64,000 nt of DNA, taken from contig JAXLXM010000001.1 of the NCBI GenBank assembly GCA_046327925.1, positions 555,316-619,315 on the forward strand. The letters are read 5' to 3'. The stretch is from Candidatus Binatia bacterium (GTDB taxonomy: Bacteria; Desulfobacterota; Binatia; HRBIN30). Under the pieces are notes generated by a model that was not told where the DNA came from, did not search any database, and saw only the letters and a list, made by a program, of their open reading frames with translations. How positions within the stretch are numbered: the first letter of the stretch is position 1; the number at the start of each line of letters is the position of its first letter. Below are positions 44,612 through 54,285 of the stretch, in pieces. Position numbers and translations under genes: made by a program.

Positions 44612-44807
44612 GATCATGTCTCCTGTGGGAAACACGCGCTCGAGGTCGGCCAAGGGGTACGCGTTCCCGATCCCCGTAGCGCCAGCCAGGGCGTAGATCA
44701 ACTCTGTCACATCGCCGTATCGCCTTCGGGCAATACGCGACGCCAAGGTGGTGCATCCCATTGGCCCGTCATCCGCCCACGGGATTGCGCAACCGTGCCG
44801 CGGCTAG

Positions 44808-44826
44808 CTAGTTTCCGTCTCGAAAT
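44808..44826. repeat. IS left terminal inverted repeat
   Basis: CTAGTTTCCGTCTCGAAAT. It pairs with 46986-47004, with one C/T mismatch. Confidence 0.75.
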
Positions 44827-44872
44827 GCGTCTAGGCCTTGTGACACAAGGGTTTGCGACGTTTAAGCAGCCG

Positions 44873-45277
44873 TCATTTGTGGGCCGGGCGGCGGCGATTG
44901 TCTAGGGAAAGAGGCTTGGCGCGACGAATTTTGGCTGTGAATGTCTGGCGGCGCAGTCCGCGTAACAGGCGCGCCCGCTCGATACTGAGGCCGATCCACT
45001 CGTCCACCAGAGCGCGCAACCGTTGGTAGTTTCGTAGCTGCTGCTCGACGCCGGGGAGGTCGGGCGCGCGCACGAAGGTCGACGAACTCTTACGCCGGTG
45101 GCCATAGCTGAGCTGGTAGTACGGGCCGTGGCGTTGCGCCGGGTCGGCCTTGCAGCGGCAGGCGGGATTGCCGCAGACATTGTACTGGCGGCTGATCGAA
45201 CCCGGGTGCAGCGCACCGAGGGCGGCGAGCTCGTGCTTGATGGCATTGATGCGGTGGTGGATCTCACGCTCGGTCAT
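44873..45277 (-). CDS. DUF6788-like small Zn-ribbon protein (IS passenger/accessory gene)
   Basis: 134 aa. The YNVCGNPACRCKADPAQRHGPYYQLSY motif is one I associate with DUF6788 proteins found next to transposases. It sits inside the IS, divergent from the transposase. Confidence 0.55.
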   Translation of the reverse strand: MTEREIHHRINAIKHELAALGALHPGSISRQYNVCGNPACRCKADPAQRHGPYYQLSYGHRRKSSSTFVRAPDLPGVEQQLRNYQRLRALVDEWIGLSIERARLLRGLRRQTFTAKIRRAKPLSLDNRRRPAHK

Positions 45278-45374
45278 GGAGCATCCGAGAGTAGCTCACG
45301 CAGAGAAATCTTCGAAGGGGACTTACTCCGATAGCCGAATATATGCTACCGGAGAGGGGCGGAGGTGCTGGTGG

Positions 45375-46802
45375 ATGCGGGAGATCAGGCACACGCAGAT
45401 CAGCTTTGCAGACCTGGAGCTGGGACGCCGCGTCCGGCTGGACCCGTTGCTGCAACAGATCAGCGACTTTCTCGATCGGCACGGCGAGCTGGTCACCGCG
45501 GTGCATCGGGATTTGAGCCGCTCGCTCAAAAACGCCCGACGGGGGCGTCGGGGCTTGAACGCCGAGCAAGTGTTGCGCGCCTTTGTATTGATGCGGATCA
45601 AGAACTGGGACTACCGGGAGCTGGCGGAGCGCGTCACCGACGGGTTTACGCTGCGTCAGTTTACCCGCTTTGATAGCGCACCGGTGCCCCGCCACCACGC
45701 CTTCCACCGCGCCTTCGTGCGCCTCCAAGCCCGCACGCTACGTAAGATCAATGAGGCCATCGTGGCCGCCGCGGTGCAGATGGGCCTGGAGGATGTCGAG
45801 AAGCTGCGGCTGGACACCACCGTGGTCGAGACCGCCATTCGTTATCCCCGCGACAGGGGGCTGTTGTGGGATACGGTGCGGGTGCTCAGCCGGCTGGTGC
45901 GGCACATTGGCGAGATCGCGCCGGTGGCCTGCGAGACCTTCCCCCACCGGACCCGCCGCGCCAAGCGCCGCATGCAGGAGATCGGCCGGATGCGAGCGCG
46001 CGCGCAGCGTGCGCGGAGCTTGCGGCGCAAGTATCGAGATCTGCTTACCGTGACGACCGAAGTCATCGAAAAAGCCGCGGCGGTAACGCGCAAGGCCCGC
46101 ACCGTGCGGGGCACCGAGTTGCTCGACACGCTCACCCTCAAGGCGCTGTGCGATGAGGTCAGCGAAGTCGCGGCGCTCGGGCGGCGCGTGATCGACCAGA
46201 GTGAACGGCGGGTCTTTGGTGGCGAGACCGTGCCCGCCGACGAGAAACTCTACTCGCTCTTCGAGCCCCATACCGACATGATCAAGCGGGGCAAGGTCTA
46301 CAAGCCGGTTGAATTCGGCCACAAGGTGCTGCTCGTGGAAAGCCGCATCGGTCTCATCACCGATTACCAGGTGCTCGACGGCAACCCCATCGATAGCGAC
46401 CAACTCGTACCGTCCGTGCAGCGTCACCGAAAACGATTCGGCAAGGCCCCCCGCGTCCTGGCCGGCGACCGCGGCTTCCATGACGCGGCTGGCTGCGAGC
46501 AAGTGCGCCGCCGCGGCGTTGCGCTTGTCGCGATCCCGCAGCGGGGCGGCAAGCGCAGTGTCGAACAAGCGCAGTTCGAGAAGAGTCGCGCTTTCAAGCA
46601 GGCGCAGGCATTTCGCTCGGGCGTCGAGGGCCGGATCTCGGTGCTCTTTCGTGGCCGCGGCATGAAGCGCTGCTTGTGGTCCGGCAGCGAGCGTTTCGAA
46701 CTGTTCCTTGCGGCAGCGGTCCTTGCCAACAATCTACTGGTGATCGCCGCGCGCCTGCAGAAGCGACCTGCGAAGGCCGCCGCCCTCCGAGGTGCAGCCT
46801 GA
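45375..46802 (+). CDS. DDE transposase (IS4/IS5 superfamily; IS5/ISNCY-like with a DUF772-type N-terminus)
   Basis: ATG at 45375 gives 475 aa. The N-terminal segment LNAEQVLRAFVLMRIKNWDYRELAERV.D...RQF resembles the DUF772/InsH N-terminal domain. Candidate DDE residues lie in LRLDTTVVE, LAGDRGF and FRSGVEGRISVLFRGRGMKRC. Confidence 0.8.
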   Translation: MREIRHTQISFADLELGRRVRLDPLLQQISDFLDRHGELVTAVHRDLSRSLKNARRGRRGLNAEQVLRAFVLMRIKNWDYRELAERVTDGFTLRQFTRFDSAPVPRHHAFHRAFVRLQARTLRKINEAIVAAAVQMGLEDVEKLRLDTTVVETAIRYPRDRGLLWDTVRVLSRLVRHIGEIAPVACETFPHRTRRAKRRMQEIGRMRARAQRARSLRRKYRDLLTVTTEVIEKAAAVTRKARTVRGTELLDTLTLKALCDEVSEVAALGRRVIDQSERRVFGGETVPADEKLYSLFEPHTDMIKRGKVYKPVEFGHKVLLVESRIGLITDYQVLDGNPIDSDQLVPSVQRHRKRFGKAPRVLAGDRGFHDAAGCEQVRRRGVALVAIPQRGGKRSVEQAQFEKSRAFKQAQAFRSGVEGRISVLFRGRGMKRCLWSGSERFELFLAAAVLANNLLVIAARLQKRPAKAAALRGAA

Positions 46803-46985
46803 TCGCCAGCGCTCTGCGTCCTTTTGTCGGTGGGTACCCGCCGGCCGATCGCGCTCGTCCGCAGCCACCCGCAGTTGCCATCTTGGCCGCCATGTGCGTC
46901 CCGGCGGGCGTGCAGATGTCTTCGCGCGCGCGATTCTCGTGCTGGAACTGCGCTCGGTTACCCTTGAAAATAGCGGCCGAAACTG

Positions 46986-47004
46986 ATTTCGAGACAGAAA
47001 CTAG
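46986..47004. repeat. IS right terminal inverted repeat
   Basis: ATTTCGAGACAGAAACTAG, the inverted copy of 44808-44826. Confidence 0.75.
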
Positions 47005-47952
47005 ATAGCGCTTTTGGGCAGGGACGGTTCCGGGCTTCGTTTGGACGATTCGACCTTGCCGATAGAGCTCTTCCATCCGCTCCTTCTTGAAGCGCCAGTA
47101 CCGCGTAACGCCAAGGAACTCATAGTATGGATTCCCTTTTGCCGCTCCTCCCGGGCCTGTTGCATCGCTCAGCCGGTATCGCCTCCCCGTCTTTGGCTCT
47201 ACATGCTTGTAAAAGGCTCCGACATACTCTTCGGAGTACGGCTGGTACTGCATATCCCAGCAGAAAGCGTCACTCTTGGTATACAGGAAGATGACATCGT
47301 GGATTGGGCCCATGTGCATGGAGCCCTGCCCGATGTCGCTGTGTGCCGTCTGCCGCTTCCAGATGATCTGGTTCACAAACTTCTCGGGGCCAAACACTTG
47401 GTCGAGAGCGGCCTTGATGTAGTGCGACACGTCCCATCCCATGTGAACGTAGATGGTCCCGCGCTCCGACAGCAGGTCCCGCATCAACTGAAACCGATCG
47501 AACAGCATCTGAACGAATGACTCGAGACCTCGACCCCACGTGTCGCGATACGCCTTCTCCTCAAGGAGCGAGGCCTCCTTGGTGACTTCTTCCTCCCCTA
47601 TGAACGCTCGAAAGGAGAAGTCTGCGCCGGTTGCAAACGGCGGATCGATGTAGATCAGATCGACCTTCCCCGCGAACTTCTCCAGCAGCGAACCCATCAC
47701 CAGCAGGTTGTCGCCCCAGATGAGCTTGTTGCGCCAGCCAGCTTCGAAGGTGTCGCCCTCCTTGCCTTCGTAGACGTCGAAGAGCGTGCCCTGCACGCCG
47801 CCTTTCTTCGCCTCGCGCGTGGCGCGGCTCTCGTTGACGGTCTCGATGACCTGGAACGGCAGGCTGACGCGCGGCACTTCCTTGAGCGTGCCGTCCTCGT
47901 TGTACTTGCCGGGCCAGACCAGCTCGGTCCTGGTGATGTCGATCTTCGCCAT
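47005..47952 (-). pseudogene. mod: Type III Mod-like (beta-class N6A/N4C) DNA methyltransferase, truncated after codon 316 by the IS
   Basis: N-terminal 316 codons carry catalytic motif IV IYIDPPFATG and the Mod-like region ...PAQKRY. After Y316 the frame runs into the IS end and reads nonsense. Motif I (AdoMet binding), which follows motif IV in beta-class enzymes, is absent. GC is about 56% by hand count over 47101-47340. Confidence 0.75.
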
Positions 47953-49410
47953 CTACTGGTTCTCCTCGATCTTGTTCAGGTAGTCGGCGCCCGCGCGGGT
48001 CAGGCGGTAGCGCTGTTTGCTGCTGCGCGGCTTGTCCGGGATGGTCATCTCGAGCAGGCCGGCGGCGAGCAGCGGATTCAGGATTGCGACCCGGAAATGC
48101 TTCCGGTCCGCGACCTTTGCTGCACGCTGCAGTCGCTCTCGCGGGCTCGGCTCCTGTGCCGCTTCCAGGACGGCGATGACTTGGGACGTACTTGGGGGAT
48201 ACTTGGGGGGCACTTGGGGGGCACTTGGGGCCCACTTGGTCCCTGCTTGGTCCCCACTTGGTCCCGGTCGATTCGCCGCGGCCCGGACCGCGGGGTTCGG
48301 CCGGAAAATCGCGGTCGTGAAACCGTTGGTCTCCCAGACGGGCTCGGGGTAGCCACCCTCCCGCGCCTCGTCCCGGATCCGCTTGATGCCGGTGCCGGCC
48401 TTCTCGATGAAGTCGATCCGATGCAGGAGGTCGGCGATCAGCGCGTTGCGGCGGACGGCCTTGCGGCCAAGATCGGAAAGAGTCATGCCCTTGGGGAGTC
48501 CTCCGGGACTCACCACCTCGATGCGGTCGGTGTAGAGCTCCACGAAGACGTTGGCCCCGTCCATGAACCAGTCCCGGTGCATGACCGCGTTGATGATGGC
48601 CTCGCGCAGGGCCTTCATCGGGTATTCGGGGATGTCCTGCCGCTGCACGGCCTCGATCCGCCAGGCGGCGCGGGTGTTGCGCGCGACAAAGCGCATCGTG
48701 TCCTCGATGTCGGCCACGATGCCGCCGTCGAAGTCCTTGCGGTCGAGGATGTCCGCCTTGCTCGTTCCCTTCGCCAGGAGGCAGGTGATGTATCCCTGAT
48801 TGAAGAAATGGCGGACGTTTTTCGCGAAGAAGAGCACGCCGGCGTTGCGGAAGAGGAGTCTCCCTCCGGCCCGCTCGGCCACCTCGATGTTCACCAGCAC
48901 ATCTTCGGTGCGCGGGCGTCCGGTGATGCCCGAGAGCTCGAGCCAGGCTTTGTACTTCGCGCGGTCGAAGTCCTGCGGGTAGCGGAAGTGCGGGCAGGGC
49001 GAGAGATCGAAGCGGATCGCGCCCTCGGCTCGGAAGAAGTCGCGGATCTCGCCGCGCGAGAGCTTCTGCGTCACCGCGCCCTGACGCCAGAAGAAGCCCT
49101 CGCTGCACTGCACCGGCTTGGCGTCGCTCTCGTGGACCTGGACGACGAGCACCCGGCCCACCGGGCCGACCACGACCTTCACCGGCGGATCGCAGTTGCG
49201 CGCCATATCCTGAATGCGGGCGCGGAGCGCGTTCGTGTCCTTCACGCCGACCACGGCGCCATCGTCCCGCACGCCGAGCAGGATGCGGCCGCCGATCGTA
49301 TTGGCCAGCGCCACCATCTCGCGCGCCAGCGATCCGGAAAGGCTCTCCTTGAACTCCAGGGTCGTGCCTTCGCCTTCCTGGATGAGGATCGCGAGGTCGG
49401 CCGTCTTCAC
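47953..49410 (-). CDS. AlbA_2 (Schlafen-like) / HATPase_c_4 / C-terminal wHTH ATP-binding putative DNA-binding protein
   Basis: The GTG at 49410 overlaps the stop of the upstream helicase (GTGA). Motifs are EGEGTTLEFKESLS (AlbA_2 N-terminus), ...HRDW....NVFVELYTDRIEVVSPGGLPKGMT (HATPase_c_4-like), and a C-terminal ...KQRYRLTRAG wHTH-like tail. The stop TAG abuts the mod ATG. Confidence 0.75.
   Translation of the reverse strand: MKTADLAILIQEGEGTTLEFKESLSGSLAREMVALANTIGGRILLGVRDDGAVVGVKDTNALRARIQDMARNCDPPVKVVVGPVGRVLVVQVHESDAKPVQCSEGFFWRQGAVTQKLSRGEIRDFFRAEGAIRFDLSPCPHFRYPQDFDRAKYKAWLELSGITGRPRTEDVLVNIEVAERAGGRLLFRNAGVLFFAKNVRHFFNQGYITCLLAKGTSKADILDRKDFDGGIVADIEDTMRFVARNTRAAWRIEAVQRQDIPEYPMKALREAIINAVMHRDWFMDGANVFVELYTDRIEVVSPGGLPKGMTLSDLGRKAVRRNALIADLLHRIDFIEKAGTGIKRIRDEAREGGYPEPVWETNGFTTAIFRPNPAVRAAANRPGPSGDQAGTKWAPSAPQVPPKYPPSTSQVIAVLEAAQEPSPRERLQRAAKVADRKHFRVAILNPLLAAGLLEMTIPDKPRSSKQRYRLTRAGADYLNKIEENQ
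48179..48266. repeat. Eight tandem, degenerating 11-bp units (ACTTGGGGGGC-like) inside the AlbA_2-family gene
   Basis: Units read directly: acttgggacgt, acttgggggat, acttggggggc, acttggggggc, acttggggccc, acttggtccct, gcttggtcccc, acttggtcccg. The unit length is not a multiple of 3. Confidence 0.85.
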
Positions 49411-52400
49411 GCGAAAACCCCCTGGCGCGCGATGATCCCTTCCGCGTGGCAGAGCATCCGCAGGTCGCATTCTCCGCAGATCGCCGACTCGGGCGGTGTA
49501 GCGACCGCGAACTCACGCGCCTGGATGCGGCGCACGGTCTCGTCGAAGTGCCGCCCCGCCTCTTCCACCCGCGCCGGGTCGTAGGGCAGGGCCATCAGAG
49601 CATCCGCCTTGCGCGGCTCCGATGTCCAGTAGAGGAGCAGCCGATCCACGCGCCGGCCGTGGCGGCGCTCCAGGATGTGGGCGTAGGTGCAGAGCTGGCG
49701 CTCATAGGCCGCAATCAAGTCGGGGCTGTCCTTCGGCCGCGGCGAGGTCTTGAAGTCGAGCAGCTCGAGCTTGCCGCCTGCCTGCCGCGCCCGGCCGCTC
49801 TCGATCAGGCGACGCAGATATTTTCGGCCATAACCCGTCTTGAGATCCCTTTCGCGCTTGACCGCGTCTTCTCGCGATGGGTGCTCTTCGTAATGAGCGA
49901 TGCGAACGGGTCTGTAACGTGCGGTCCAATCAGCTCCTGAGCCTCGCAAATGCTCAGTCCAACGGCGATGGAGATCGTCTGTATGTCCGATGTAGTGACT
50001 GCCATTGTCGCATTCGATTACATAGACGAAAAAGACGCCCGGCCGCGGCGCAGGCAGGTCGCCGCCGAGCAAGAGGTCCACCTTGCCGGCGAGGATGTAG
50101 CCGTCCTTCTCCAGCGACACGTCCACTTCGGTCTCGATGACGCGGCGCATCTCGTCGCGGTTCTGGCGGAAGTAGTGCACTACCTGCGTGAACGCCGATT
50201 CCTTCGCCGCATCACCGATGGGCCGCACGTCGGAGAGGCAGAGGAAGCGGAACGTGCGCTCGAACAGCTCGCGGATTCGCGCCTCGTCGAGCGTGTCGAG
50301 CTTCCCGTCGAGGGCGATGCGGTGGATCTCCTCGATGGTCTGGTGCACGAGGAGCCCGAAGAAGATCACCGCCGAGCGGGACGGCGTGAAGTCGTACTCG
50401 CGGAAGAACTGGTACTGGCGCGGGCAGGTCTCGTAGATCTTGAGGTCGCCGGTGAAGCTGTAGGTCCGCTTGACCGGCATCCGCTCGCGCACCTCGAAGC
50501 GCTGAGCGGCAAGCAGCTCCTTCTGCACGTAGGGCCACTGCGGCAACCCCTGCCAGATCGGCGCGAAGTGGTCCTTGGGCGGCTCGTGCGCCGAGAGCAC
50601 GAGCAGCTTCTGCGGCCGCGAGAAGGCGACGTAGTGCAGGCGCATGCGGTCGAACAGCGTGATCCGGTTTTCGGGCTCGAAGGGCGGCCGGTGGTAGAAG
50701 TGGCCCAGATCCCGGTCGGTCTGCTTGGGGCTCCCGCGCTGGTTGCTCAGCGAGCCGACGACCACCACCGGGAACTCGAGTCCCTTGGTCTGGTGGATGG
50801 TCATGACCTGCACGTGGCCTTTGGGGAAGGGCTGGTCCGGGTCCTCGTACTCGTTGATGCCGCCGTCGTAGAGCAGGCGCAGGAAGCTGTTGAAGAAGTG
50901 CCACCGAAGGAACTCGCGGTTTCGGTGCGTGACCACCGTGTAGTGGTAGTAGCTCTGGAAGACGTTCAGGAGTTGGGAAAAGATCGCCAGGTTGCGGGCG
51001 GTGTTCTCGTTGTGCACCGCGCTCCGGAACGGGTCCAGCGCGAGCAGGTGGTATAGGTAGTCGGCCGGCCGCAGGTCGAGCGCCTCGCCTTCCTTGAGGC
51101 CCGCGATCTGCGTGACCCATCGCGCGAGCGACGCGGCGAGCGGGTGCGGGGCCCCGAAGCGGCGCCCGAGCTGCACGATCGCGTCGTCCACGTAGGTGGC
51201 CAGCTCCGCGACCGCGCCGGCCACCTGGCCGCGGCCCTCGCCGTGCCAGCCGAAGATGACCGCGAAGCACGCGATGAGGTCACGCACTTCAGGGATCTCG
51301 AAGTAGCCTCGGGCGCGTGGGCAGAACGCCGGGATGCCCCTGACTTCGAGGGCGGCGAGGTAGGGCCCGCTATGGTCCTCGCGAACGCTGTGCAGCAGGA
51401 GCGCCACCTGGCTGTAGTCCGCGATGACGTCGTTCTTCTTCAGGAAGGCGACGAGATCCGCGAAGCGGGCAGCCTCGTCACGTTGATCCTTGCCCCAGAT
51501 CGCGATCACCGACGGGTAGGTGGGATGCATGCCCGCCTCATCCGCCTCGATCGTTTTGTCGTAGCGAAAGGAGGCGCCGGTGCGGTTCGACCAGTCCGCC
51601 GAGGCCATCCAGCGGTCGTAGCGCTCGACGATGGCGCGGTGAGAGCGGTAGTTGGTGGTGAGCTTGAGCGTGTGGCAACCGGGCACGCGCTGCGGGAACT
51701 CGAGGATGTTGCGCACGGTCGCGCCGCGGAACCGGTAGAGGCTCTGATCCTCGTCGCCGACCACGCAGAGGTTGAGGCTCTTCTCCGTGAGCTTGAGGAG
51801 GACCTGCTCCTGGATGTAGTTCGTGTCCTGGTACTCGTCGACCAGGACGTACCGGAGATCGCGAGTCACCGCCTCCGCCGTGGCGGGGTCCTGGAGCAAA
51901 TCGAAGACCAGCCGCTGGAGGTGCGCGAAGTCCGTGCGGTTCGCGTCAAGGAGCGCGCGTTCGTAACGCCGGTAGGCGTCGCCGATGCAGCGGAGGAACA
52001 AATCGGCTGACGCACTGAGAAGCATTGGGTCCAACAGCTCCTCGGTAATCTTGTCGAAGTAGGCTCGCGCACCCTCGATGGCGGTCCAGCGCGTCTTCCA
52101 ACGGTGCAGGAAGAGGTCGTTCTCGGCCGGCCCCACGATTGCGTCGAAGTGCTCGAATATGAAGAGCAGCTGCGTCAGCTCGTCGAGCGTGTCGTAGCTG
52201 TGGCCGAGCTCCGTCCGATGCCGGTGCTGCGTGAGGATGCGATTGCAGAGGCTGTGGATGGTTGACGCCGTCAGCTCGGAGAGATCGCCCGCGTACCCGA
52301 CCTTCCGCGCAGCAGCGGCGAGGCGATCGCGCATCTCGAATGCCGCCTTCTCCGTGAAGGTGCAGAGGACGATCTGCCTCGGGTGCGCTCGCTCCAGCAA

Positions 52401-52553
52401 CAGGAGATTCAGGGCGCGGAGGACGATACTGAAGGTCTTGCCCGAGCCGGGGCCGGCGATGACGAGGAGCGGGCCGTCGAGGTGCCCGATGATTTCGCGC
52501 TGGACATCATTGAGGCGCGGGAAGTGCTCGGCGATTGCCCGCGCGAGCGTCAC
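49407..52553 (-). CDS. UvrD/Rep-family SF1 helicase fused to a Cas4/AddB-type Fe-S PD-(D/E)XK nuclease that carries a nested GIY-YIG domain
   Basis: Helicase motifs are VIAGPGSGKT (Walker A), VLVDEYQDTN, TNYRS and MTIHQTKGLEFPVVVV. The C-terminus has YETCPRQY...GKVDLLL...[GIY-YIG: FFVYVIECDNGSHYIGHTDDLHRRWTEH...REDAVKRERDLK]...ELLDFKTS...YERQLCTYA...CGECDLRMLC. The GTG start at 52553 overlaps the radC stop. Confidence 0.85.
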   Translation of the reverse strand: MTLARAIAEHFPRLNDVQREIIGHLDGPLLVIAGPGSGKTFSIVLRALNLLLLERAHPRQIVLCTFTEKAAFEMRDRLAAAARKVGYAGDLSELTASTIHSLCNRILTQHRHRTELGHSYDTLDELTQLLFIFEHFDAIVGPAENDLFLHRWKTRWTAIEGARAYFDKITEELLDPMLLSASADLFLRCIGDAYRRYERALLDANRTDFAHLQRLVFDLLQDPATAEAVTRDLRYVLVDEYQDTNYIQEQVLLKLTEKSLNLCVVGDEDQSLYRFRGATVRNILEFPQRVPGCHTLKLTTNYRSHRAIVERYDRWMASADWSNRTGASFRYDKTIEADEAGMHPTYPSVIAIWGKDQRDEAARFADLVAFLKKNDVIADYSQVALLLHSVREDHSGPYLAALEVRGIPAFCPRARGYFEIPEVRDLIACFAVIFGWHGEGRGQVAGAVAELATYVDDAIVQLGRRFGAPHPLAASLARWVTQIAGLKEGEALDLRPADYLYHLLALDPFRSAVHNENTARNLAIFSQLLNVFQSYYHYTVVTHRNREFLRWHFFNSFLRLLYDGGINEYEDPDQPFPKGHVQVMTIHQTKGLEFPVVVVGSLSNQRGSPKQTDRDLGHFYHRPPFEPENRITLFDRMRLHYVAFSRPQKLLVLSAHEPPKDHFAPIWQGLPQWPYVQKELLAAQRFEVRERMPVKRTYSFTGDLKIYETCPRQYQFFREYDFTPSRSAVIFFGLLVHQTIEEIHRIALDGKLDTLDEARIRELFERTFRFLCLSDVRPIGDAAKESAFTQVVHYFRQNRDEMRRVIETEVDVSLEKDGYILAGKVDLLLGGDLPAPRPGVFFVYVIECDNGSHYIGHTDDLHRRWTEHLRGSGADWTARYRPVRIAHYEEHPSREDAVKRERDLKTGYGRKYLRRLIESGRARQAGGKLELLDFKTSPRPKDSPDLIAAYERQLCTYAHILERRHGRRVDRLLLYWTSEPRKADALMALPYDPARVEEAGRHFDETVRRIQAREFAVATPPESAICGECDLRMLCHAEGIIARQGVFA

Positions 52554-53278
52554 AGGAGGCCGGCCTTTCGGAAGCTGAATGCGTCCTGCGCCGAGACGAT
52601 GAGGTGGTCCACGACGCGAACGCTGACCGCCTCGGCAGCCAGCACGATGGCACGGGTCAGAACCTTGTCCTGCTCGGTCGGCGCGACCGTTCCGTTCGGA
52701 TGGTTGTGGGCAAGGACAACGCCGAAGGCGCGGCGCCGCAGAGCGGCTTCGATCACGCGCCGCGGGTACACGGCTGCACGATCAATGGTCCCTTCTTCAA
52801 GCGTCTCGATACCGTCGCGCAGCAGCCGGTAGCCGGAATCGAGATAGCCGACCTCGAAGACCTCGTGCTGCAGCGCGCCGATGCGCATCCGCCAGAAGCT
52901 TGCGAGCCGGTCGGGCTCGGCCAGGACATCGCGTCCCTCGCCGCCCTGCTGAAGGTACAGGGTCGCGGCCGCCCGGATGACCCGCAGGGCCACGGGCGTG
53001 ACGCTCCCGATACCCGGCACGGCACGGAGTTCTTCGATGGGCGCATCGAGGATGTCGCGGAGGTTTCCGAAGCGGGCGATGAGATTCTTTGCCGGCCGCT
53101 TCACGTCGGAGCGGGGGATCGCGAGCGTTAAGAGCAGCTCGACCACCTCGTAATCCGCGAAGCCGTCCAGGCCGGACTTCAGGAAGCGGTCGCGGAGGCG
53201 CTGCCGGTGACCGAGGTAGCGGGGATCGTCATCGCTCATGTCCTGGCGCGTCTCGATTCCTGTCGGCGTGCGAATCAA
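52550..53278 (-). CDS. radC: RadC-family (DUF2466, JAB/MPN-like) protein
   Basis: HhH region ELRAVPGIGSVTPVAL and the C-terminal JAB motif VVLAHNHPNG. The start is either 53278 or the ATG at 53239 (MSDDDPRYLGHRQRLRDRF), the latter being closer to typical RadC N-termini. Confidence 0.85.
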   Translation of the reverse strand: MIRTPTGIETRQDMSDDDPRYLGHRQRLRDRFLKSGLDGFADYEVVELLLTLAIPRSDVKRPAKNLIARFGNLRDILDAPIEELRAVPGIGSVTPVALRVIRAAATLYLQQGGEGRDVLAEPDRLASFWRMRIGALQHEVFEVGYLDSGYRLLRDGIETLEEGTIDRAAVYPRRVIEAALRRRAFGVVLAHNHPNGTVAPTEQDKVLTRAIVLAAEAVSVRVVDHLIVSAQDAFSFRKAGLL

Positions 53279-53490
53279 TGGGCTGCGTCAAGGCCGCCGA
53301 ACTTCAGTCCGCCTCCCGAACGAAATCCGCTACCTCTATGTGTTTCCACGGGGTAGCGCTTTTCGAACGTATCGATTCCATAGGTCGAAACCGATGGCTC
53401 TATCAAGCGGGTAGGTGGCCGATGTGCATCCAGGCGCCGCCGTCCGGATGCCGGAACCGGCCTCGAGCAAGCGTGCGGCGCGGCGGTGGC

Positions 53491-54285
53491 TCACGCCGTG
53501 GGGCAACGGACGTGGATGCGAAAGAGATACAGGAATGAAAACACAGCGGCGGCACCGCCCGCCAGACCCCACAAGCCGTTGAGGATCCAGTACAGCAGGG
53601 GCGCAAGGATGGAATCCGTGGCGATGTTGGCGAAGCGCTCGACGATGCCGCCGTACCCGATGAAGAAGCAGACGTTGTAGAACTGCAGGGCGCCGCTGAG
53701 GCCAAAGAGGGCGAATGCCTGCGCGTCTCGGCCGCGCCACAACCGCACCAGCGCCGCGGCAATGGGAATGGCGATCACCCAGAACGAGAGTTCCGCCAGC
53801 ACAAAAAAGGGTGTCAGCCCCCCATAATCCAAATCGGACGAGAAATAGCCCCACCACCAAATGTAATAGGGCAGGCTGGCCTGTGTGTGCGCGACGTTCT
53901 CAAACGCCGACCGGTACACGACCGGAGGCACCTCCCAGATGAGAATCCACAACGACGAAAAACAAAACCAGTGGAGGATATAGCCCCGCCAGCACAGTTC
54001 CCGCGGATACGGCAGGAACAGCGGCGCGAAGATGATGACGGCGAGGACGGGGACGGCCGTCAGCCAGGCGGCGCGGGCGACGAAGATGACATCGAGATCG
54101 AGCGCGCGCGACAGGATCACCCACGCGACGAAGACCAGCGGCAGCGCGCCCAGCAAGGCAACCCCCTGAACGCGCCGTGAATGTCGCAGATGACGCGCCC
54201 CCAGGGTCATATCGAGATCCGTCGTCGCCGCGGAATGTGCCTCCCCGATCGACGACGGCGCTTGACTGATAGAACCGTACTGCAT
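53491..54285 (-). CDS. Multi-pass membrane protein, family not recognised
   Basis: 264-aa ORF with about 7 hydrophobic helices and many Trp/Tyr/Phe residues (YYIWWWGYFSSDLDYGG). GC is somewhat lower than the surroundings. The start is not resolved. Confidence 0.5.
   Translation of the reverse strand: MQYGSISQAPSSIGEAHSAATTDLDMTLGARHLRHSRRVQGVALLGALPLVFVAWVILSRALDLDVIFVARAAWLTAVPVLAVIIFAPLFLPYPRELCWRGYILHWFCFSSLWILIWEVPPVVYRSAFENVAHTQASLPYYIWWWGYFSSDLDYGGLTPFFVLAELSFWVIAIPIAAALVRLWRGRDAQAFALFGLSGALQFYNVCFFIGYGGIVERFANIATDSILAPLLYWILNGLWGLAGGAAAVFSFLYLFRIHVRCPTA

What the first reader, a model, noticed from the sequence alone, without database searches (positions are those of the whole stretch)
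47005..53278. Translationally coupled radC / UvrD-Cas4-like helicase-nuclease / AlbA_2-HATPase / Mod methyltransferase operon: candidate uncharacterised defence or DNA-surveillance module
Four minus-strand genes are joined without any intergenic space:
- The radC stop TGA overlaps the GTG start of the helicase-nuclease (GTGA, 52550-52553).
- The helicase-nuclease stop overlaps the GTG start of the AlbA_2/HATPase protein (GTGA, 49407-49410).
- That protein's TAG is followed immediately by the ATG of a type III Mod-like methyltransferase (TAGATG, 47950-47955).

The methyltransferase is partnered with an SF1 UvrD helicase fused to a Cas4/AddB-type Fe-S PD-(D/E)XK nuclease, not with an SF2 Res subunit. 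A Schlafen-like AlbA_2 ATP-binding protein and RadC are also present.

I do not recognise this gene set as any named system. Gabija pairs UvrD-like GajB with an OLD nuclease. Type III R-M uses Res. DISARM and BREX have different cores.

Composition is heterogeneous. mod is about 56% GC by hand count, against roughly 65-70% for its neighbours. An IS sits at the 3' end. Both points fit a horizontally acquired island. In this genome the system is probably dead, because mod is truncated.
Basis: partly seen in the sequence, partly recalled or inferred. Interest (0 to 1): 0.75.

Follow-up and report, generated by a model that had tools for sequence, protein, structure and literature searches.

The report
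Broken type III restriction-helicase cassette
This is a broken copy of a widely shared bacterial anti-virus gene cassette, an ordinary type III restriction system that travels with an extra helicase-nuclease and a RadC protein whose roles nobody has tested; one of its genes also carries a small mobile nuclease element that may be undescribed.

Summary
The four minus-strand genes and their overlapping junctions are real (GTGA, GTGA, TAGATG). The domain calls are right.

In 80 metagenome loci the same cassette recurs: radC, then the UvrD-Cas4 helicase-nuclease, then a variable slot, then mod, then res.
- RadC lies upstream in 52 of 60 loci.
- Mod lies downstream in 36 of 39.
- A classical Res follows Mod in 34 of 35.
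- The slot is empty in 29 loci, holds the AlbA_2/HATPase gene in 14, and a Tiamat TmtA-like gene in 21.

So Mod is not Res-less. In this window an ISNCY element cut mod near codon 317, and res is gone.

Relatives at 30-38% identity on plasmids and in E. coli keep helicase-nuclease, Mod and Res, but lack RadC.

The association of UvrD-Cas4 with type III Mod/Res and Schlafen-like ATPases was published in 2017 (PMC5704561). No function has been tested. The RadC link and the alternating slot were not found in the literature.

Most novel is the 282-bp in-frame element with conserved inverted-repeat ends. It also sits in HsdS, HsdM and other restriction genes.

The parts
52550..53278 (-). radC: HhH/UPF0758_N plus RadC JAB domain. 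The longest ORF starts at TTG 53278; the likely start is ATG 53239 (229 aa).
   Evidence: Pfam RadC 9.5e-31 and TIGR00608 160 bits against a cutoff of 133.85. The JAMM-like motif HNHPNGTVAPTEQD is intact. Homologues are 229 aa, and their stop overlaps the helicase start. A RadC homologue lies upstream of the helicase in 52 of 60 related loci.
49407..52553 (-). UvrD-Cas4 helicase-nuclease, 1048 aa: an SF1 UvrD/PcrA-type helicase fused to a Cas4/AddB-type PD-(D/E)XK nuclease with four Fe-S cysteines.
   Evidence: Pfam UvrD-helicase 1.1e-62, UvrD_C, PDDEXK_1 2.2e-20 and Cas_Cas4. Walker A (GPGSGKT), DEYQD, and the nuclease and Cys residues are invariant in alignment A1. Homologues are 76-90% identical across Acidobacteriota, Actinomycetota and Latescibacterota. 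The closest solved structures match only the helicase N-terminal part (PcrA, UvrD).
49776..50057 (-). 282-nt in-frame GIY-YIG element inserted in the hairpin between nuclease motif II (VDLLLGGD) and motif III (GKLELLDFK). Its ends are inverted repeats: CTGCCTGCGCCGCGGCCGGG ... GGCCGGGCGCGGCAGGCAG.
   Evidence: Pfam GIY-YIG 3.8e-15 at aa 842-911. The insert is absent from 116 of the 120 listed homologues (precomputed Pfam) and from 19 of 23 sequences in alignment A1. Terminal inverted repeats are seen in the DNA. Interior GC is 53% against 66% in the host gene. The same 282-nt unit with near-identical ends sits in HsdS, HsdM and other genes.
47953..49410 (-). Schlafen-like AlbA_2 / HATPase_c_4 / C-terminal winged-helix (Fic-like_C) protein. 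It is the optional occupant of the slot between the helicase-nuclease and mod.
   Evidence: Pfam HATPase_c_4 4.2e-22, SLFN_AlbA_2 1.9e-18 and Fic-like_C 2.8e-17. The GTG start overlapping the helicase stop is conserved in L086. The gene is present in 14 of 66 related loci, truncated in L001-L003, and absent in L004.
47001..47952 (-). 5' remnant of the type III mod gene, about 317 of 620-670 codons. It keeps motif IV (IDPPF) but lacks the AdoMet-binding half.
   Evidence: The PADLOC MTase_III match (5.5e-52) covers profile positions 17-237 of 616. The Pfam N6_N4_Mtase match covers 1-128 of 221. tblastn with an intact Mod aligns residues 1-319 of 670 and ends at nt 47002. The first 50 aa are 82-100% identical in all related loci.
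44812..47000 (+). ISNCY-family insertion sequence: transposase ORF 45150-46802 (+) and a DUF6788 ORF 44873-45277 (-). It truncates mod and abuts the 5' region of an unrelated CoA-transferase gene.
   Evidence: NF033593 417 bits against a cutoff of 325. 35-nt inverted repeats lie at 44803-44837 and 46975-47009. CTAG sits on both flanks. No further Mod or Res remnant exists anywhere in the window. The window holds a single copy of the IS.

Best explanation
This locus is a decayed copy of a horizontally spread restriction cassette. Its gene order is radC, UvrD-Cas4 helicase-nuclease, an optional ATPase gene, mod, then res.

**Shown**
- The core of intact copies is a classical type III R-M pair: a Mod methyltransferase and an SF2 Res with a C-terminal PD-(D/E)XK nuclease.
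- The helicase-nuclease is a conserved, translationally coupled upstream partner of that pair, from near-identical copies down to 30-38% identity.
- RadC is added in the highly conserved environmental clade to which this window belongs.
- The AlbA_2/HATPase_c_4/wHTH gene is an interchangeable passenger. It alternates with a Tiamat TmtA-like gene or with nothing.
- Here an ISNCY element cut mod near codon 317 and res has been deleted. Methylation and restriction are therefore lost, while radC, the helicase-nuclease and the AlbA_2 gene remain intact ORFs.

**Inferred mechanism**
- Mod2Res recognises unmethylated sites and makes a single double-strand cut.
- The UvrD-Cas4 enzyme then loads on the DNA ends, or on nicks and forks, and unwinds and degrades the invader. 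This would be an AddAB/RecBCD-like step that belongs to the cassette, needs no Chi site, and would not depend on a host RecBCD that phages can inhibit.
- RadC (HhH plus JAB) probably helps bind or process those DNA ends.
- The slot gene acts as an independent sensor or effector.
For: **Cassette statistics in 80 metagenome loci**
- RadC upstream in 52 of 60.
- Mod downstream in 36 of 39.
- Res after Mod in 34 of 35.
- Slot: empty 29, AlbA_2 14, TmtA-like 21, other 2.

**Conserved coupling**
- The 4-nt overlaps recur in homologous loci.

**Co-conservation of all genes**
- Median identity is about 78% for RadC and the helicase-nuclease (to the window's own proteins) and about 82% for Res (to L001/L004).
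- Mod is 62-67% identical, with a variable middle, as in type III systems generally.

**Different flanks in each genome**
- The cassette moves as a unit.

**Distant relatives keep helicase-nuclease, MTase and Res-like helicase**
- Seven of 9 plasmids examined: Blastomonas, Nitrosomonas, Enterococcus, Spirosoma, Vibrio, Priestia and Tunicatimonas.
- An E. coli integrase-bearing island.

**Control**
- 77 generic UvrD loci have no Mod or Res.

**Catalytic residues**
- Helicase and nuclease catalytic residues and the four Fe-S cysteines are invariant.

**Published support**
- PMC5704561 describes the same neighbourhood and the same inference of an ancillary defence role.

**Decay in this window**
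-.
Against: - No experiment exists for any member. The degradation step is inference from domain content only.
- UvrD-Cas4 also occurs with Dcm-Vsr or alone (the Natronococcus plasmid). It is therefore not strictly tied to Res cutting.
- In Eco86II, a type III system with an extra helicase-like gene 5' of mod, that protein was not needed for methylation and was not found in the cleaving fraction. Whether it belongs to the same family was not established.
- The three upstream ORFs here are intact although mod and res are lost. That could mean they work on their own, or only that the loss is recent.
- The structure model was too poor to test anything.
Confidence: 0.6

Rival explanations
1. RadC and the helicase-nuclease are a self-protection or repair module. 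They repair or limit double-strand breaks that the type III enzyme makes in the host's own chromosome, for example just after the cassette enters an unmethylated genome. That would let the cassette establish itself after horizontal transfer.
For: - The cassette is spread across phyla at about 80% identity, so it often lands in naive hosts.
- UvrD plus a RecB-family nuclease is the domain content of the recombinational repair enzymes AddAB and RecBCD.
- RadC is historically linked to repair and competence.
- DprA sits in the RadC position on the Tunicatimonas plasmid.
- PMC5704561 also suggests a RecB/AddB-like recombination role.
Against: - There is no RecA-loading or Chi-recognition partner and no second subunit.
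- Most hosts already have RecBCD or AddAB.
- Type III enzymes already avoid self-cutting, because they need two inverted unmethylated sites (established knowledge of EcoP15I).
Confidence: 0.15
2. RadC, the helicase-nuclease and, where present, the AlbA_2 ATPase form an autonomous defence system. It only shares an operon and a mobile cassette with a type III R-M. It senses and degrades foreign DNA without any input from Mod or Res.
For: - All three ORFs remain intact here after mod and res were lost.
- UvrD-Cas4 is found alone or with Dcm-Vsr or DISARM neighbours.
- Other single-protein helicase-nucleases are stand-alone defences, for example Nhi and Hna (own knowledge; Hna titles).
Against: - Tight coupling to mod, with 0-15 nt gaps or overlaps, and conservation of the trio down to 30% identity argue for a functional link.
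- A nuclease-helicase with no self/non-self marker of its own would need the methylation system, or another sensor, to be safe.
Confidence: 0.15
3. RadC and the helicase-nuclease serve the cassette's own mobility. They would process DNA for integration or transfer, rather than serve defence.
For: - The cassette appears in unrelated flanking contexts without an integrase or flanking tRNA.
- RadC-type JAB proteins are common on conjugative elements.
Against: - No recombinase or transposase is conserved with it.
- No terminal repeats were seen.
- Distant copies ride on plasmids and integrase islands that provide their own mobility.
- Helicase-nucleases are not known to catalyse integration.
Confidence: 0.05
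4. This is the reader's reading: a new four-gene system in which the SF1 helicase-nuclease replaces Res as the restriction subunit of a Mod-dependent system.
For: Only the appearance of this window, where no res gene follows mod.
Against: - Res follows Mod in 34 of 35 related loci and in all 8 distant trios examined.
- The absence here coincides with an IS at the break point.
Confidence: 0.03

Closest known systems
UvrD-Cas4 fusion proteins in type III Mod/Res neighbourhoods (Hudaiberdiev et al. 2017, BMC Evol Biol 17:232, PMC5704561)
   Same: - The same fusion: an SF1 UvrD helicase plus a pfam12705 Cas4-like nuclease.
- The same commonest neighbourhood, Mod plus Res.
- The same occasional Schlafen-like ATPase-HTH gene.
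- The same inference of an ancillary defence role.
   Different: - That paper does not mention RadC, the alternating slot with a Tiamat-like gene, or the GIY-YIG insertion.
- No function has been tested.
- The copy here is broken.
Classical type III R-M (EcoP15I, EcoPI)
   Same: Intact relatives have an N6_N4_Mtase Mod with a variable middle, followed by a Res with an SF2 ATPase and a C-terminal PD-(D/E)XK nuclease.
   Different: - There are one or two extra conserved upstream genes and an embedded slot.
- In this window Mod is truncated and Res is absent.
Type III systems with an extra 'helicase-like ATPase' 5' of mod (Eco86II, BspHIV; Murray et al. 2021, PMC8259958)
   Same: - A third, conserved helicase-like gene sits immediately 5' of mod.
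- It is linked in more than 500 genomes, and its role is unknown.
   Different: - The authors call it SF2-like, without a nuclease motif.
- DNA search with a gammaproteobacterial UvrD-Cas4 gene found only 3 E. coli genomes, none labelled as strain NCTC86.
- Whether it is the same family was not established.
AddAB, RecBCD and AdnAB helicase-nucleases
   Same: An SF1 UvrD-like motor plus a RecB-family nuclease. The four-cysteine Fe-S arrangement is like that of AddB and Cas4.
   Different: - It is a single polypeptide with no partner subunit.
- NCBIfam scores are far below the cutoffs, for example AddA at 126 against 708.
- It is encoded in an R-M operon.
Gabija (GajA OLD nuclease plus GajB UvrD helicase)
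   Same: The UvrD-type helicase domain gives PADLOC GajB hits.
   Different: - There is no GajA/OLD nuclease.
- The matches cover only the helicase N-terminal half.
- The nuclease is fused and Cas4-like.
R-M operons that carry embedded defence genes, and the Tiamat gene TmtA
   Same: - The slot between the helicase-nuclease and mod holds alternative defence-type genes.
- The slot protein of L132 matches the PADLOC TmtA model PDLC03969 along its full length, at 1510 bits.
   Different: In this window the slot holds the AlbA_2/HATPase_c_4 gene, which has no PADLOC system of its own. Its only hits are partial, to pAgo-associated models.

Membership tests
Type III restriction-modification system | A complete Mod methyltransferase with catalytic motif IV, a target-recognition region and the AdoMet-binding motif I | tested here: not met
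   The window's Mod stops at about residue 317-319 of 620-670. The Pfam match covers profile positions 1-128 of 221, and the AdoMet-binding half is missing. Intact relatives meet this feature.
Type III restriction-modification system | A Res subunit (SF2 ATPase plus PD-(D/E)XK endonuclease) encoded next to mod | tested here: not met
   tblastn with two Res proteins finds no match anywhere in the 64-kb window. Res is present in 34 of 35 related loci, with ResIII plus RE_endonuc.
Type III restriction-modification system | Site-specific hemimethylation, and ATP-dependent cleavage that needs two inversely oriented sites | not testable with these tools
   This needs methylome and cleavage assays on an intact copy.
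UvrD-Cas4 fusion family (largest branch of pfam12705, PMC5704561) | An N-terminal SF1 UvrD-like helicase fused to a C-terminal Cas4-like PD-(D/E)XK nuclease | tested here: met
   UvrD-helicase 1.1e-62, UvrD_C, PDDEXK_1 2.2e-20 and Cas_Cas4 1.8e-05.
UvrD-Cas4 fusion family (largest branch of pfam12705, PMC5704561) | Four cysteines for an Fe-S cluster, and the RecB-type motifs D...(D/E)xK...QxxxY | tested here: met
   C710, C1026, C1029, C1035, D826, E930/D933/K935 and Q953/Y957 are invariant in 23 sequences. Cluster binding itself was not tested.
UvrD-Cas4 fusion family (largest branch of pfam12705, PMC5704561) | Genomic association with type III mod and res | tested here: met
   for close relatives. 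for relatives at 30-38% identity. Negative control.
Gabija | A GajA OLD-family ATPase-nuclease encoded next to the GajB helicase | tested here: not met
   No PADLOC GajA hit on any neighbouring protein; there are only GajB-type hits on the helicase.
AddAB / RecBCD | Scores above the family cutoffs, and a partner subunit (AddB, or RecC/RecD) | tested here: not met
   AddA scores 126 bits against a cutoff of 708, and RecB 108 against 696. No partner gene is in the operon.
RadC / YicR family | A JAB domain with an H-x-H...S/T-x-x-D metal motif, and an N-terminal HhH region | tested here: met
   TIGR00608 scores 160 bits against a cutoff of 133.85; PF04002 9.5e-31; PF20582 3e-07. The motif HNHPNGTVAPTEQD is present.
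Schlafen-like AlbA_2 ATPase with HTH (the COG2865-type protein of defence islands) | AlbA_2 domain, HATPase_c_4 domain and a C-terminal winged helix | tested here: met
   PF04326 1.9e-18, PF13749 4.2e-22 and PF21247 2.8e-17. The assignment to COG2865 is from memory and was not tested.
ISNCY insertion sequence | A family transposase above the cutoff, plus terminal inverted repeats | tested here: met
   NF033593 scores 417 bits against a cutoff of 325. The inverted repeats are 35 nt and 83% complementary.
Tiamat (TmtA) | A TmtA protein (sacsin-like ATPase plus NOV_C) | tested here: not met
   It was not found in the part of the window examined. It is present in the equivalent slot of 21 related loci.

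The most novel reading that the evidence does not exclude
The 282-bp GIY-YIG insertion inside the helicase-nuclease gene (49776-50057) is a copy of an undescribed family of small mobile elements.
- The elements insert in frame into protein-coding genes and are translated as part of the host protein.
- They are bounded by conserved inverted-repeat DNA ends.
- They mainly colonise restriction-modification genes, above all type I HsdS.
- They are presumably moved by their own GIY-YIG nuclease.
- Short 'solo-end' palindromes of 36-66 nt in some homologues would be their miniature derivatives or excision scars.
Probability: 0.4. Interest if true: 0.8.

Novelty: new variant of a known kind. Interest (0 to 1): 0.5.

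Why it matters
Type III restriction is treated as a two-protein system. Yet a conserved helicase-nuclease travels with mod-res from Firmicutes plasmids to soil Acidobacteria, and in one very widely exchanged clade RadC travels with them too.

Nobody has tested what these extra proteins do. RadC itself has had no established function for decades.

An intact cassette is small, about 8 kb, and several cultured sources exist: Thermoleophilum album, three E. coli strains, and Vibrio, Enterococcus and Priestia plasmids. The question is therefore directly testable.

The slot between the helicase-nuclease and mod is also a natural place to look for new defence genes.

Separately, the in-frame GIY-YIG element could be a new kind of selfish DNA that lives inside restriction genes without destroying them. 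That would bear on how restriction specificity subunits evolve.

Tried and rejected
- **Genome-contig scan.** The scan with the full-length alignment picked generic UvrD motifs (LVDEYQDT) and returned almost only ordinary UvrD/PcrA loci. I reused these as a negative control. A second scan with the nuclease-domain alignment on metagenomes worked.\n- **Window protein look-up.** The window's own helicase-nuclease is not on record, so the source organism stays unknown.\n- **AlphaFold2 model.** The model of the 1048-aa protein from the 23-sequence alignment was poor (mean pLDDT 45.9), so I did no fold search.\n- **viral-contig scan.** An exact-pattern scan for the element's ends found nothing.\n- **Promoter scan.** It found no sigma-70-like site in 46800-53700.\n- **RNA scans.** There is no tRNA and no Rfam family in the window.\n- **Systems considered and rejected.**\n - Gabija: no GajA.\n - AddAB/RecBCD: far below the cutoffs, and no partner subunit.\n - Hma: the 25 best of 60 PADLOC matches for the helicase-nuclease were GajB-type or RTasHel, and HmaA gave only a marginal partial match to a slot protein of L132.\n - DISARM: not a member; DrmA/DrmC are neighbours of a split relative on a Nostoc plasmid.\n - Nhi and Hna: single-protein helicase-nucleases with a different architecture; this comparison is from memory only.\n- **Simple IS insertion into mod.** I rejected this because the far flank is the 5' region of a CoA-transferase gene, not the rest of mod. 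The CTAG on both flanks is uninformative for an element that targets CTAG.\n- **Literature searches.**\n - Searches for RadC together with type III, and for COG2003, found nothing relevant.\n - Searches for GIY-YIG with HsdS or with in-frame insertion also found nothing relevant.\n - The useful papers came.

Full report
**1. The observation**

The minus strand between 47.0 and 53.3 kb carries four consecutive ORFs.
- radC lies at 52550-53278. It has a RadC JAB domain plus HhH/UPF0758_N and passes the TIGR00608 cutoff.
- A 1048-aa protein lies at 49407-52553. It has UvrD-helicase, UvrD_C, PDDEXK_1 and Cas_Cas4 domains.
- An AlbA_2 / HATPase_c_4 / Fic-like_C (winged-helix) protein lies at 47953-49410.
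- The 5' part of a type III mod gene starts at 47952.

The same overlaps occur in homologous loci from other samples, so they are a conserved feature, not chance.

The Walker A and DEYQD helicase motifs are invariant among 23 homologues. So are the nuclease residues D826, E930/D933/K935 and Q953/Y957, and the four cysteines C710, C1026, C1029 and C1035.

The mod remnant is 58.8% GC, and 56.6% for codons 101-316. Its neighbours are 65-69%.

Two corrections:
- The likely radC start is ATG 53239, giving 229 aa as in homologues.

**2. The break**

An ISNCY-family insertion sequence occupies 44812-47000.
- Its transposase scores 417 bits on NF033593 against a cutoff of 325.
- It has 35-nt imperfect terminal inverted repeats.
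- CTAG lies on both flanks.

Homology to intact Mod proteins ends at nt 47002, which is residue 319 of 670. The AdoMet-binding half is missing.

On the other side of the IS there are only about 45 nt before the start of an unrelated CoA-transferase gene. No further Mod or Res remnant exists anywhere in the 64-kb window. So the 3' half of mod and everything that followed it were deleted, and the restriction-modification function is dead here.

The window has no tRNA, no Rfam match and no second IS copy.

**3. What intact copies look like**

The helicase-nuclease has thousands of relatives. The best 120 are 76-89% identical to it. Those with names come from Vicinamibacterales, Blastocatellia and Thermoleophilum album. 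A fragment at 74% identity lies in a Latescibacterota genome.

Contigs carrying close homologues show one gene order: radC, helicase-nuclease, an optional gene, mod, res. Res carries ResIII and a C-terminal RE_endonuc domain.

I fetched 80 metagenome loci with a nuclease-domain alignment and scored their ORFs against the cassette proteins.

| Feature | Count |
|---|---|
| RadC directly upstream | 52 of 60 loci with enough sequence |
| Mod downstream | 36 of 39 |
| Res after Mod | 34 of 35 |
| Slot empty (gap under 60 nt) | 29 |
| Slot holds the AlbA_2/HATPase_c_4 gene | 14 |
| Slot holds a sacsin-ATPase + NOV_C protein of 1070-1510 aa | 21 |
| Slot holds something else | 2 |

The sacsin-ATPase protein matches PADLOC TmtA (Tiamat) models. 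One matches along its full length at 1510 bits.

Median identity is about 78% for RadC and the helicase-nuclease (to the window's own proteins) and about 82% for Res (to L001/L004). For Mod it is 62-67%. The first 50 residues of Mod are 82-100% identical everywhere. This is the usual type III pattern of a conserved frame around a variable recognition region.

Flanking genes differ from locus to locus, so the cassette moves as a unit.

As a control, 77 ordinary UvrD/PcrA loci retrieved by an unspecific scan had no Mod or Res nearby.

**4. More distant relatives**

tblastn against plasmids found relatives at 29-38% identity. I examined nine.
- Seven have the helicase-nuclease followed directly by a site-specific methyltransferase and a protein of about 870-1070 aa annotated as a DEAD/DEAH-box helicase or TnsA-endonuclease protein. 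The three I scanned with Pfam carry ResIII plus a TnsA-like PD-(D/E)XK domain. The seven are Blastomonas, Nitrosomonas, Enterococcus, Spirosoma (two small genes in the slot), Vibrio, Priestia and Tunicatimonas.
- A Nostoc plasmid has a split version next to DISARM drmA/drmC.
- A haloarchaeal plasmid has it alone.

Three of 5426 complete E. coli genomes carry the same trio. In the one examined, it lies in an integrase-bearing island next to yecA.

None of these distant copies has RadC in the operon. The trio is therefore the old, conserved core. RadC is an addition of the highly conserved clade to which this window belongs.

**5. What is already known**

Hudaiberdiev et al. 2017 (PMC5704561) describe exactly this UvrD-Cas4 fusion as the largest branch of pfam12705. 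They state that its most common neighbourhood is type III Mod and Res, sometimes with WYL/HTH regulators and Schlafen-like ATPases fused to HTH. They infer an ancillary role in defence. They do not mention RadC or GIY-YIG. I found no later paper using their term.

Murray et al. 2021 (PMC8259958) report type III systems (Eco86II, BspHIV) with an additional helicase-like gene 5' of mod in more than 500 genomes. That gene was not needed for methylation and was not detected in the cleaving fraction. They call it SF2-like, without a nuclease motif. I could not establish whether it is the same family.

PADLOC 2.0 has no model for RadC. It matched the helicase only through generic UvrD/GajB models. 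The set is therefore recognised in the comparative literature but is not a named or tested system.

**6. How it most likely works**

Shown:
- the gene content
- the conservation of gene order and coupling
- the intact catalytic motifs
- the decay in this window

Inferred:
- Mod2Res does the sequence-specific recognition and makes the single cut typical of type III enzymes.
- The UvrD-Cas4 enzyme has the domain content of AddAB/RecBCD-type end-processing machines. It would load on the resulting ends and destroy the invader independently of host RecBCD.
- RadC (HhH plus JAB) has been proposed on contextual grounds to be a nucleic-acid-processing domain. It would assist.
- The slot gene is an independent passenger.

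I give this 0.6 overall. Most of that weight is on the identity of the locus; the degradation step alone deserves perhaps 0.35-0.4.

Rivals:
- a self-repair or establishment role (0.15)
- an autonomous helicase-nuclease defence merely co-transcribed with the R-M (0.15)
- a role in cassette mobility (0.05)

**7. The GIY-YIG insertion**

The insert is present in only 4 of the 120 listed homologues (precomputed Pfam). In the 23-sequence alignment it separates VDLLLGGD from GKLELLDFK, the two catalytic strands of the nuclease.

Its DNA is 282 nt and 53% GC inside. It ends in inverted repeats: CTGCCTGCGCCGCGGCCGGG ... GGCCGGGCGCGGCAGGCAG.

A search of 1.84 billion cluster representatives with the 95-aa stretch (the 94-aa insert plus the next host residue) gave 448 hits at E <= 1e-10. 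Of the 150 best, most match the full stretch (105 of 150 by my local re-alignment) and most lie inside larger proteins.

Of the first 110, the Pfam host families were:
- 60 type I HsdS proteins
- others are HsdR, HsdM, DUF1156 methylases, a type III Mod and NOV_C proteins
- a few are housekeeping proteins

The borders are constant: LPAPRPG ... GR(A/T)RQAG. The commonest site is the HsdS motif GKLVPQDPND^EPASVLLERIK.

In seven copies from six host contexts, in loci of 45-66% GC, the element is exactly 282 nt and its terminal roughly 20 nt are almost identical as DNA.

About one in six of the listed HsdS homologues of one carrier have it, and most of those are roughly 60-100 aa longer than typical non-carriers.

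Some helicase-nuclease homologues carry a 36-66 nt 'solo-end' palindrome in another hairpin.

The GIY, YIG, Arg and Glu positions are nearly invariant.

This behaves as a mobile element that is read through in frame. I found no description of it, but the library is incomplete.

**8. Verdict**

- The locus is a dead copy of a known but untested kind of cassette, in a RadC-bearing variant with an exchangeable slot.
- Interest is moderate for the cassette.

Noticed in passing
window 49776-50057 (-); also L171:3028-3309, L170:2054-2335, L180:4360-4641, L181:5477-5758, L001:5051-5332, L172:12560-12841: A 282-nt GIY-YIG-coding element with near-identical inverted-repeat DNA ends is inserted in frame in unrelated genes: the UvrD-Cas4 nuclease, HsdS, HsdM and a type IIG-like methylase tail. 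There are 448 protein clusters at E <= 1e-10, and 60 of the 110 examined are type I HsdS. I found no published description.
   Followed up: yes
L001:4973-5003 (and L002, L003, L124, L128); proteins P0002, P0003, P0090: Some helicase-nuclease homologues carry a 36-66 nt palindrome made of the two element ends alone. It encodes LPAA..GAAQAGG and is inserted in frame in a different hairpin (SLEKD^GYIL). It looks like a miniature derivative or an excision scar of the GIY-YIG element.
   Followed up: partly
L096:10885-14097, L132:10825-15357, L172:13207-16434 and 18 further loci: In about a third of related cassettes, the slot held here by the AlbA_2 gene holds a Tiamat TmtA-like gene (sacsin-type ATPase plus NOV_C). 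The position behaves as an exchangeable cargo slot between the helicase-nuclease and mod.
   Followed up: partly
window 47653-47952 versus 47005-47652: The first 50 residues of Mod are 82-100% identical in all related loci. The rest is about 60% identical and drops to 56.6% GC here. This suggests the recognition region is swapped by recombination behind a constant 5' end.
   Followed up: partly
window 44812-47000: The ISNCY element carries, besides its transposase, a 134-aa DUF6788 ORF on the opposite strand (44873-45277) that overlaps the annotated transposase start. CTAG lies on both flanks. The window has only one copy.
   Followed up: partly
L172:18520-18891, L173:9315-9686, L174:9309-9680: A small PDDEXK_3 gene (123 aa) sits between mod and res in the cassettes that also carry the GIY-YIG insert and the TmtA-like gene.
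   Followed up: no
L004:4948-9048 (Thermoleophilum album FNWJ01000002.1): The cassette lies directly downstream of DruA, NurA and HerA-like (DUF87) genes, so it sits in a defence island.
   Followed up: no
L178:4764-6901 (Tunicatimonas pelagia plasmid): A phosphoribosyltransferase and DprA occupy the position upstream of the helicase-nuclease where RadC sits in the window's clade. By my recollection, RadC and DprA are both competence-induced DNA-processing proteins.
   Followed up: no
L180:6204-8722: A very large ORF (more than 1700 aa) with AEP-TOTE primase-like and reverse-transcriptase domains directly follows the hsdM of the type I system whose HsdS carries the GIY-YIG element.
   Followed up: no
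L005:9292-10897 (Latescibacterota chromosome OZ240239.1): Another decayed copy: RadC plus only the first ~196 residues of the helicase-nuclease at 74% identity, with no Mod or Res nearby.
   Followed up: no
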